Shown here in pieces: positions 6,951-8,077 of a stretch of DNA of 64,000 nucleotides; the first letter of the stretch is position 1, and each line of letters starts with the position of its first letter. Location: positions 1,856,001 through 1,920,000 of the forward strand of contig CAVQMM010000001.1 of assembly GCA_963713615.1 (NCBI GenBank), given 5' to 3'. The notes beneath the pieces are model-generated. The model was given only the letters and a program-made list of their open reading frames with translations. It did not search any database and was not told the origin of the DNA. Source of the stretch: an uncultured Chlamydiae bacterium (GTDB lineage Bacteria; Chlamydiota; Chlamydiia; Chlamydiales; JAJFMA01). The position numbers and the translations under genes were made by a program.

Positions 6951-7087
6951 GGGGAGAGGGGGAGAGAGGGGAAGGGAGGGGGAAGGAGGAGGATTAGGAA
7001 TAGGATTAGGAATTTTTACCACAGAGGACACAGAGACGCCGAGGTAGGAGAGAGAGGAGAGGAAAGAGGAATTTTTTGTCTTTTATT
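6951..7087 (+). repeat. Family B inverted repeat, left arm, with G/A-rich tract
   Basis: 7002-7061 (aggattaggaatttttaccacagaggacacagagacgccgag...) is the reverse complement of 7955-8013, with 1 substitution and 1 indel. Confidence 0.9.
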
Positions 7088-7175
7088 GAGTTAAAGCCTG
7101 TAACCTCTTAATACCTCCTTAACTGATTGGCGGTATAGTATCGGTTAAATCGAACAGACAGAAGAGGGAGAGAAG

Positions 7176-7808
7176 ATGAACGTTATACAAAGTTGTTATA
7201 GATCCGTTTGTGACGCAGTAGTTCCAGAATCATTGAAGCCCAAATTTGGCATGGTTTCAGAGGCAGAAATCTCAGAAATTGCATACAAAGTTGCTCAACT
7301 AGATTCTTGGAAGACCCTAACAACAACAGTTAGCGTTGGATTGCTACCAAGCTGCGTCCCAAGTCCCTTCAATATTCTCAAGCCAGAGGAATTGACAAGC
7401 TTACCTGCACTGTTTAATCTGCGCCACCCCGTCGAAATTATCTTCTTTCCCCTGGCAATTGCAATGTTAACCCTAATGTCTGCCATCTTTGTACCTGTAT
7501 TGGCAATAAGTGGAACGATTAATGGCATGAATTTAGGTGAGAATCTTTCCGGAAAACTTCTTTGTGGCATTGCCTCAACCATTTGGGCTGTTGCTGCCGC
7601 AGGGGTCTTTGGAGCTGTGCTTTCCATCAGTCCAGGAAGTATGATAGTCATAACCTTAACCCTGTTTGTAGCATCGCGTGTTTTGAAACATATGCGAAAC
7701 AACGAGATCGCGAGCATTACAGAGCGAAATGGAGGCCGCGTACCCACTGCTGTGGTACAAGCCTGCCCAGACGCCATCCAATGGAATTCCTTGTACAAGA
7801 CGGCCTAA
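7176..7808 (+). CDS. Hypothetical membrane protein (about 3 TM segments, Inc-like hydrophobicity)
   Basis: 210-aa ORF with a purine-rich RBS. Long hydrophobic stretches IIFFPLAIAMLTLMSAIFVPVLAI and IASTIWAVAAAGVFGAVLSISPGSMIVITLTLFVA. Confidence 0.7.
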   Translation: MNVIQSCYRSVCDAVVPESLKPKFGMVSEAEISEIAYKVAQLDSWKTLTTTVSVGLLPSCVPSPFNILKPEELTSLPALFNLRHPVEIIFFPLAIAMLTLMSAIFVPVLAISGTINGMNLGENLSGKLLCGIASTIWAVAAAGVFGAVLSISPGSMIVITLTLFVASRVLKHMRNNEIASITERNGGRVPTAVVQACPDAIQWNSLYKTA

Positions 7809-7822
7809 TCGCTACCTGGGTT

Positions 7823-7920
7823 TTAATGTCCATTTTGTCCATTAATGTCCATTTTCCATTAAGAACCAATGGACTATGGACAAAATGGACTTTATGGACA
7901 TTAATGGACCATATGGACAC
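7823..7920. repeat. Family C iterated GTCCAT/ATGGAC palindrome
   Basis: Three GTCCAT units plus one TTCCAT, followed by six ATGGAC units at 7-10 nt spacing, forming a fold-back. Confidence 0.8.
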
Positions 7921-7925
7921 TAATT

Positions 7926-8077
7926 AAATAAAAAACAAAAAAATCCTATTTCTTCTCTCCTCTCTCTCCTAACTCGGCGTCTCTGTGTCCTCTGTGGTAA
8001 AATTCCTAATCCTCTTTTCCTCTCCCACTCCCCTCCCTTCCCTTCTCCCACTCCCCTCCCTTCCCTTCTCCCACTCC
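7926..8077 (-). repeat. Family B inverted repeat, right arm, with C/T-rich 23-bp tandem repeat
   Basis: Reverse complement of the left arm. tctcccactcccctcccttccct is repeated about 2.5 times at 8021-8077. Confidence 0.9.

What the first reader, a model, noticed from the sequence alone, without database searches (positions are those of the whole stretch)
6951..8077. A whole orphan membrane-protein gene enclosed by near-perfect inverted repeats (cassette-like)
Seen: 60-bp arms (7002-7061 / 7955-8013, 1 substitution and 1 indel) extend outward into complementary G-rich and C-rich tracts. They enclose a promoter-like AT stretch, a 210-aa multi-TM ORF and a family C hairpin. The other palindromes here have loops of only 24-128 nt; this one has about 850 nt of cargo. 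Inference: a cargo-loaded MITE or an invertible segment, inserted recently (arms barely diverged) where CT021 is normally followed by other core genes. The cargo has Inc-like hydrophobicity.
Basis: partly seen in the sequence, partly recalled or inferred. Interest (0 to 1): 0.7.

Follow-up and report, generated by a model that had tools for sequence, protein, structure and literature searches.

The report
Membrane gene inside nuclease-linked hairpin element
A gene for a predicted membrane protein sits inside the loop of one copy of an abundant palindromic repeat whose arms also enclose a small GxxExxY nuclease-family gene nearby; the gene likely dropped into a pre-existing empty element, and nothing here shows that it flips or has travelled with the arms.

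Summary
The inverted repeat is real (58 of 60 columns) but is not private to this gene. It is one of 236 family-B arms in the genome, 75 pairs of them tight hairpins. One pair, 7.4 kb away, encloses a GxxExxY (PF13366/TIGR04256) gene with the same G/C-rich outer tracts; 19 of 23 GxxExxY loci in related genomes are flanked by inverted repeats. The gene and its upstream region (7095-7822) interrupt a B(C) composite: the stem right of the C hairpin pairs with a stem 730 nt away. The ORF is not an orphan: seven homologues at five loci in four genomes, only this one in B arms. Best reading: an empty, GxxExxY-linked REPIN-like element whose loop took in a positionally labile, Inc-like gene. Movement of the loaded unit and inversion are unshown; no recombinase lies within 50 kb. 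This scan found the GxxExxY-repeat link before in other genomes; my literature searches did not.

The parts
6951..7001 (+). G-rich outer tract of the left arm (purine-rich, slippage-type)
   Evidence: pairs loosely with 8014-8077; same type of tract outside the GxxExxY-containing pair; 59 of 236 arms have >=80% purine in the outer 60 nt
7002..7061 (+). Left family-B arm (core ACCACAGAG-GACACAGAG-ACGCCGAG)
   Evidence: best non-self match of 6990-7100 in the genome is the right arm (E 2e-29 vs 7e-25 next)
7062..7094 (+). Left inner AT-rich stem of the element, ending in TTAA (7091-7094)
   Evidence: complementary to 7921-7954 (I2); aligns with the centre of the empty element at C1:3265753 up to TTAA
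7095..7175 (+). Upstream region that came with the gene (TATAGT 7134-7139, SD-like 7164-7170)
   Evidence: unique in the genome; similar to the upstream region of the G001 homologue (score 46, 0 of 1000 shuffles, rank 2 of 2770 upstream regions); no sigma-70 consensus hit on +
7176..7808 (+). 210-aa predicted multi-pass membrane protein, Inc-like hydropathy, member of a small family restricted to this chlamydial family in my searches
   Evidence: no Pfam/NCBIfam hit
7823..7923 (.). Family-C hairpin (GTCCA/TGGAC repeats), starting with TTAA (7823-7826); C-type arms elsewhere enclose four-helix-bundle genes
   Evidence: I4; 12 of 20 C hairpins found are next to a B arm; for the four-helix-bundle link
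7921..7954 (-). Right inner AT-rich stem, partner of 7062-7094
7955..8013 (-). Right family-B arm
8014..8077 (-). C-rich outer tract, 23-nt tandem unit
   Evidence: D11; D1
5839..6903 (-). Left neighbour: CT021-family gene (divergent)
   Evidence: PF24683
8125..8679 (+). Right neighbour: macro-domain gene, followed by glycerate kinase
   Evidence: PF01661, PF02595

Best explanation
The repeats are one copy of an abundant hairpin element whose arms also enclose a GxxExxY nuclease-family gene 7.4 kb away, and the predicted membrane-protein gene with its own upstream region likely inserted into the loop of an empty copy that sat in the divergent spacer between CT021 and the macro-domain gene. Shown: paired arms, family size, the GxxExxY gene in the same arms, the split B(C) anatomy, the scattered gene family. 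Inferred: (1) B pairs are non-autonomous copies spread by the GxxExxY protein acting on the 9-nt CACAGAG-type sub-repeats, as REPINs depend on RAYT; (2) their loops are tolerant, break-prone landing sites that take in other palindromes, IS elements, intron remnants and accessory genes; (3) this gene entered at the AT-rich apex by a short-homology (TTAA) join, before or after the C hairpin; (4) the element does not regulate it by inversion. The protein most likely acts as a host-facing membrane protein of the inclusion (Inc) type; this is a prediction from hydropathy and distribution only.
For: Family and pairing: 236 arms, 75 tight convergent pairs, no tight divergent ones; near-identical whole elements at unrelated sites, e.g. 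5 copies of one 43-44-nt-loop element. One element here: with 30 nt of inner stem the two arms are each other's best match among 236 (132 vs 113 and 122); BLAST agrees. Split composite: in other B(C) elements both C flanks pair with each other, here the right flank pairs with 7062-7094, 730 nt away, and the left half aligns with empty element C1:3265753 up to TTAA 7094 while the right half aligns with B(C) elements from 7823-7825. Partner gene; 19 of 23 scored GxxExxY loci beat all 30 shuffles and 18 of 23 score >=31 against 32 of 1025 control ORFs; gene and arm motif co-occur in 41 genomes (both 16, gene only 5, motif only 3, neither 17). Loops take foreign DNA: best-matched pairs at C1:1197428 and C1:3722393 hold an intron-like remnant and a 4-kb mix of DUF3800, a DDE transposase and a fragment 89% identical to a gene elsewhere. 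Gene family moves without B arms: 7 members at 5 loci in 4 genomes, sites empty or otherwise filled in G000; no B pair round the G000 paralogues or the G003 copy.
Against: No same-species empty site and no junction-spanning read. With outer flanks included the right arm matches C1:3265753 slightly better than its partner (169 vs 164; 168 vs 160). TTAA occurs 9 times in 274 nt of these AT-rich flanks, so the 4-nt repeat may be chance. The similarity to the G001 upstream region runs into 7061-7094, so part of the left stem could be gene-derived. At gene level convergent bracketing is not enriched (3 convergent, 3 divergent, 2 direct), and one of the three (C1:1255912) is two broken elements. No activity of GxxExxY on the arms was tested; 0 of 80 arm-motif loci from other genomes had a GxxExxY gene within 1.5 kb; 4 of 23 GxxExxY loci lack flanking repeats; motif hits are partly the gene's own arms, so the co-occurrence test is not independent.
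Confidence: 0.6

Rival explanations
1. Cargo-loaded cassette: the gene was captured elsewhere and the whole 1.1-kb arms-plus-gene unit was then moved here in trans by the GxxExxY protein, i.e. these elements actively shuffle accessory genes.
For: Whole B elements with their loops are copied between sites (loop families of 9, 6, 5, 3 and six of 2 members, up to about 600 nt). The loaded unit has the same outer anatomy as the GxxExxY-bearing one. Other accessory-type genes lie between convergent arms of B, E and other families: a 233-aa membrane protein, a 122-aa ORF, an ABC transporter, a methyltransferase, an AAA-DUF4143 protein, an ankyrin protein. The G001 homologue is also bounded by repeats (exact 32-nt direct repeat of a 99-copy family).
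Against: No second copy of the unit or of the cargo DNA; no gene-bearing B pair falls in a multi-copy cluster; six of seven family members are not in B arms; the arms round the 233-aa gene are not each other's best match.
Confidence: 0.2
2. Resident gene bracketed afterwards: the gene was already in this variable spacer and arms arrived on each side (two insertions, or a local duplication of a B(C) element followed by loss of the inner halves).
For: The spacer collects variable genes in relatives without B pairs (G001, G004); B pairs prefer divergent gaps (36 of 79 vs 406 of 1430, p 0.0009); 74 of 86 non-tight arms have no relaxed partner within 700 nt, so half-elements are common; the gene is old relative to its paralogues (4-fold sites differ at 20 of 29 and 23 of 34); C1:1255912 is such a chance case.
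Against: Mutual best match including locus-specific inner stems; two independent half-deletions are needed to leave exactly a left half and a C-plus-right half; no homologue at this site in the 5 relatives inspected.
Confidence: 0.13
3. Invertible phase-variation segment: recombination between the arms flips the gene on and off.
For: About 95 nt of high complementarity could support occasional homologous inversion; 2 of 9 informative loop-versus-flank comparisons among other B elements were swapped.
Against: The gene's upstream region lies inside the segment, so flipping would carry its likely promoter along; nearest tyrosine recombinase 54 kb away, nearest resolvase-family gene over 790 kb away; 7 of 9 comparisons keep orientation and the 2 swapped ones compare loops of unequal length; no strand-switch joint in 4 runs, though none covered the junctions.
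Confidence: 0.04

Closest known systems
REPIN-RAYT (Bertels and Rainey 2011, PMC3116915; passages seen)
   Same: Inverted doublets with a spacer as the copied unit, singlets as remnants, intergenic location, a rare partner gene flanked by the same repeats.
   Different: Partner here is a 130-aa PD-(D/E)XK-family GxxExxY protein, not a Y1 tyrosine transposase; arms are about 55-60 nt with 9-nt sub-repeats; loops vary from 32 nt to 4 kb and nest other palindromes, IS elements and genes. Excision was seen in reads for REPINs, not tested here.
TIRtrons/TIRYT (Di Nocera et al. 2013, PMC3733652; passages seen)
   Same: Small enzyme gene between long terminal inverted repeats that also form dispersed repeat families.
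   Different: TIRYTs are tyrosine transposases; the words cargo and passenger do not occur in the main text; supplements not read.
MITE-flanked gene units: IMU and NFM2-MITE integrons (Delihas 2011, PMC3184786; Minnick 2024 review, PMC10969869; passages seen)
   Same: Non-autonomous repeats bound a gene-bearing segment that could be moved in trans.
   Different: There two complete MITEs flank the cargo and 5-bp target duplications are seen; here the gene lies inside one element between single arms, no long direct repeat flanks it, and mobility is unshown.
GxxExxY protein family (TIGR04256 / PF13366 PDDEXK_3)
   Same: The gene found inside B arms passes both cut-offs.
   Different: Listed as function unknown in Steczkiewicz et al. 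2012 (PMC3424549; two passages seen); no link to repeats in the passages seen.
Chlamydial Inc proteins (Dehoux et al. 2011, PMC3048545; passages seen)
   Same: Lineage-restricted, no conserved domain, hydrophobic stretches separated by short loops.
   Different: Type III secretion and inclusion localisation untested; no sequence or fold link to a known Inc.

Membership tests
REPIN-RAYT | Repeats occur mainly as inverted doublets forming hairpins | tested here: met
   75 tight convergent pairs = 150 of 236 arms; no divergent pair under 1.1 kb
REPIN-RAYT | Same repeats flank a RAYT (Y1 tyrosine transposase) gene | tested here: not met
   None of the 6 PF01797 loci showed B-type arms in the best flank alignment; B arms enclose GxxExxY
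REPIN-RAYT | Excision or movement of doublets | tested here: inconclusive
   Near-identical whole elements at unrelated sites; no reads deep enough
Classical MITE | Terminal inverted repeats around a non-transposase core | tested here: met
Classical MITE | Target-site duplication | tested here: inconclusive
   No direct repeat scoring >=30 in 81 of 82 pairs, best 7 nt here; 2-9 bp duplications cannot be judged without an empty site and exact ends
Classical MITE | Ends shared with an IS transposase element of the genome | tested here: not met
   In the flank survey of 2990 ORFs B-type convergent arms bound GxxExxY, this gene, a 233-aa ORF and nest/intron remnants, not a transposase gene directly
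Invertible phase-variation segment | Linked serine or tyrosine recombinase | tested here: not met
   nearest 54 kb away
Invertible phase-variation segment | Both orientations in a population | tested here: inconclusive
   4 low-depth runs, junctions not covered by this strain's contigs
Inc protein | Two transmembrane helices separated by under 30 residues | tested here: met
   Kyte-Doolittle stretches 84-118 and 127-167; low-confidence model has helices 87-120, 124-144, 153-184; no dedicated topology predictor run
Inc protein | Restricted to chlamydiae, no conserved prokaryotic domain | tested here: met
   3 of 401 genomes of the order, 4 of 21 with the wider profile; no Pfam/NCBIfam hit
Inc protein | N-terminal type III secretion signal and inclusion-membrane localisation | not testable with these tools
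   no predictor or assay available

The most novel reading that the evidence does not exclude
GxxExxY PD-(D/E)XK proteins are the mobilising enzymes of an undescribed class of palindromic elements, and in environmental chlamydiae these elements act as gene-capture cassettes: their loops take in host-interaction genes (here an Inc-like gene with its promoter region) and the loaded units are moved between divergent spacers, explaining why such gene families sit at a different locus in every genome.
Probability: 0.17. Interest if true: 0.82.

Novelty: new variant of a known kind. Interest (0 to 1): 0.47.

Why it matters
GxxExxY is a very common protein family of unknown function. This genome gives a clean test set: two GxxExxY genes, each inside its own arm family, 236 B arms, empty, nested and gene-filled copies. 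If the arms are its substrate, it defines a REPIN-like system run by a PD-(D/E)XK nuclease instead of a transposase. This locus adds that such loops can hold an intact, non-mobile, host-type gene, a possible route by which repeat-rich chlamydial genomes gain or relocate accessory membrane genes. The single locus by itself is modest: mobility, inversion and protein function are all unshown, and the nuclease-repeat link has been noted repeatedly by this scan.

Tried and rejected
Single-sequence searches gave no homologue outside the genome (1 of 377 candidates, itself; 1 of 41 genomes; metagenome scan 0 confirmed of 131 stretches); the profile search of 1.84 billion representatives returned only this protein, a paralogue, two frameshifted versions of the paralogues and one spurious repeat protein; only profile searches of genomes found relatives. 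Structure: mean pLDDT 58, no Foldseek match at E<=0.001. ESM Atlas: all scores <=0.80 (SseF 0.76, IncV 0.75), leads only. Rfam: 9 matches, all far below gathering score. Sequencing runs: 15 runs with small shares; 4 laid, short contigs identical to the window incl. one inside the ORF, none across a junction; the one joint (7035-7981, 27-nt side) comes at min_likeness 85 and is likely another organism's repeat; no second set of runs could be laid, so orientation and empty-site tests stay open. Idea that the cargo ends are a repeat family of their own: rejected, both ends unique at 3 mismatches. Idea of long target duplications: rejected. Idea that the 257-aa membrane gene at C1:1255912 is a second clean cargo: rejected, and it is unrelated to the ORF family. 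Idea that the gene is a recent copy from the groES-side paralogues: rejected, synonymous sites saturated. Genome-wide inverted-repeat listing was cut and used only qualitatively. First GxxExxY scan of 80 foreign loci was checked with positive controls and stays negative. Literature: GxxExxY in 3 papers (2 listed, seen as listing only); TIGR04256 0; PDDEXK_3 plus inverted repeat 1; four-helix-bundle plus repeat terms 0; searches gave nothing on this system by title or abstract start. No supplements were read.

Full report
Setting. The window is C1:1856001-1920000 of a 3.97-Mb, three-contig genome. Its chlamydial identity is inferred from Pfam hits CT021 and Chlam_OMP.

The observation. Arms 7002-7061 and 7955-8013 match at 58 of 60 columns, and at 85 of 96 when the inner AT-rich stems are added; the looser G/C tracts bring it to 137 nt at 71%. 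Between them lie 81 nt of upstream sequence, the 210-aa ORF and the C hairpin. Among 1025 ORFs of 120-260 aa this gene has the fourth-best flanking inverted repeat. The promoter claim is weak: no sigma-70 consensus on +.

The arms belong to a large family. A profile finds 236 arms after filtering 261 hits. They are not randomly oriented: 75 tight convergent pairs with loops under 700 nt, none divergent under 1.1 kb; of 18 neighbouring pairs of remaining arms within 5 kb, 11 are convergent (permutation p 0.00045). Loops hold AT stems, other palindrome families nested like dolls, and sometimes genes. Whole elements recur nearly unchanged at unrelated sites, so the pair with its loop is a copied unit. 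B pairs favour divergent gaps (36 of 79 against 406 of 1430), as here. No long target duplication was found (1 of 82 pairs scored >=30).

The likely partner gene. One B pair at C1:1855026-1855628, 7.4 kb left of the locus and just outside the window, encloses only a 130-aa GxxExxY gene with an AT-rich leader, and has the same G-rich and C-rich outer tracts. The genome's second GxxExxY gene lies in E-family arms and its two four-helix-bundle genes in C-type arms. I examined 24 GxxExxY loci (22 of the 29 new loci plus the genome's own two; 7 fragmentary ones left out, 1 at a contig edge): 19 of 23 had flanking inverted repeats above all 30 shuffles, mostly of the CACAGAG/CGCAGAG type; the control rate at score 31 is 32 of 1025. 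Gene and arm motif co-occur in 41 genomes (16 both, 5 gene only, 3 motif only, 17 neither; with one genome per family 11, 5, 3, 16), with the caveat that the motif hits include the gene's own arms. Against: none of 80 analysed arm-motif loci (of 124 returned) from many phyla had a GxxExxY gene within 1.5 kb; 34 were empty pairs, 42 had no partner downstream, 3 were at edges, 1 enclosed another ORF. That fits rare masters (2 of 236 arms here) but is no support. That the protein mobilises the arms is inference. I reached this link before looking; the scan had noted it in at least eight other findings.

One element, interrupted. With 30 nt of inner stem, the two arms are each other's best match among 236 (132 against 113 and 122), and BLAST of 6990-7100 ranks the right arm first. 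With outer flanks the right arm prefers an empty element at C1:3265753 by a small margin. In other B(C) composites the two flanks of the C hairpin pair with each other; here the right flank pairs with 7062-7094, 730 nt away. The left half aligns with the empty element up to TTAA at 7094, the right half with B(C) elements from 7823-7825. So 7095-7822, the gene plus upstream region, reads as an insert, with TTAA on both sides; TTAA is common in these flanks (9 in 274 nt), so the 4-nt repeat is only suggestive. Other best-matched pairs also hold foreign DNA: an intron-like remnant at C1:1197428 (group IIC identity recalled from its ends, not tested) and 4 kb at C1:3722393 with DUF3800, a DDE transposase, an unknown ORF and a fragment 89% identical to a terminase-like gene elsewhere (terminase label recalled). 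A survey of 2990 ORFs lists further accessory-type genes between convergent arms of several families; their pairing was tested only for the 233-aa gene and was not best-match. At gene level convergent B bracketing is not enriched (3 against 3 divergent and 2 direct).

The cargo. Two paralogues lie in tandem beside groES-groEL (38-43%) without a B pair; fourfold sites are saturated, so the split is old. Profiles find homologues in G001 (hhalign 95%), G003 and G004 (two), in 3 of 401 and 4 of 21 genomes. The seven members occupy five different loci; the G001 and G004 sites are empty in G000 and the G003 site holds another gene. The G001 copy lies in a divergent spacer among other palindromes, bounded by an exact 32-nt direct repeat of a 99-copy family, and its upstream region resembles 7061-7166; the G004 copies are separated by repeats of the dnaB 3' end; the G003 copy has no strong repeat. 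So the family changes place with or without B arms. Hydropathy meets the published Inc criterion of two helices with a loop under 30 residues (PMC3048545 passages); folding and fold search were uninformative and Atlas scores were lead-level.

The site in relatives. G003 has CT021 back to back with glycerate kinase, G002 with pncB; G001, G004 and G005 have other genes; no B pair is present, only one weak 28-nt match in G001. The spacer is a variable site, and both element and gene are lineage-specific there. These are different species, so no exact empty site is available.

Inversion. The upstream region is inside the segment, no recombinase lies within 50 kb, loops keep orientation to their flanks in 7 of 9 informative comparisons (112 uninformative; six of the seven from one family), and four low-depth runs do not cover the junctions. 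A switch is unlikely but not excluded.

Verdict. A real, single hairpin element of a GxxExxY-linked family with an intact Inc-like gene in its loop; most likely a landing event (0.6), possibly a moved cassette (0.2) or later bracketing (0.13). It works like a REPIN or TIRtron system but fails RAYT membership. My searches found no description of GxxExxY-linked repeats; they cover open-licence PMC and bioRxiv only, papers were seen as listings or passages, and no supplements were read.

Noticed in passing
L017:1350-1960 (G000:C1:1855026-1855628, 370 nt left of the window): GxxExxY gene as sole content of a family-B pair, directly upstream of ileS; candidate autonomous element of the family.
   Followed up: yes
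L018:1220-2300 (G000:C1:1921500-1922600): Second GxxExxY gene between tandem arrays of E-family arms (ACACGGAT type, about 75-nt period); an empty E pair lies at window 49308-49477.
   Followed up: partly
L019, L020 (G000:C1:1850780-1851364, 3217619-3218185): Two four-helix-bundle-suffix genes, each between C-type (GTCCA/TGGAC) inverted arms; each palindrome family seems to have its own small partner gene.
   Followed up: partly
L012, L015, L016 (G000:C1:3872945, 1580931, 3256585): Y1 transposase-family genes flanked by their own inverted repeats; the one at 3256585 by family-A arms (window 3562-3786 type).
   Followed up: partly
L056 (G000:C1:3722393-3726495): Near-identical 112-nt arms enclose 4 kb: DUF3800, DDE transposase, 154-aa unknown ORF and a fragment 89% identical to a terminase-like gene at C1:3474065.
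   Followed up: partly
L057 (G000:C1:1197428-1198338) and L058:1760-2250: Internally deleted group II intron-like remnants inserted beside small hairpins inside B loops (class recalled, not tested).
   Followed up: no
G000:C1:58321-60807, 433263-435796, 3750630-3753163: A two-ORF IS (IS66-like by recall) sits at the centre of family-A palindromes in several copies: loops as IS targets.
   Followed up: no
L212:460-900, L213:390-1360, L214, L215, L216: Other genes between convergent arms: 122-aa ORF tightly in E arms, 233-aa membrane ORF in degenerate B arms, ABC transporter in E arms, methyltransferase, AAA-DUF4143 gene.
   Followed up: partly
L064:1445-2761 (G001): Homologue of the ORF bounded by an exact 32-nt direct repeat of a 99-copy GTAG-type repeat, next to a nest of palindromes, in a spacer that is 178 nt in G000.
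   Followed up: partly
L063:1400-2500 (G004): Three copies of about 55 nt of the dnaB 3' end separate two tandem homologues and a palindromic element.
   Followed up: no
G017: At least 60 PF13366 matches, many identical 3' fragments, in a 1.9-Mb genome: an apparent burst of GxxExxY-derived elements.
   Followed up: no
window:43600-49300: Three tandem paralogous genes at about 1.9-kb spacing (repeat families D1, D3, D4).
   Followed up: no
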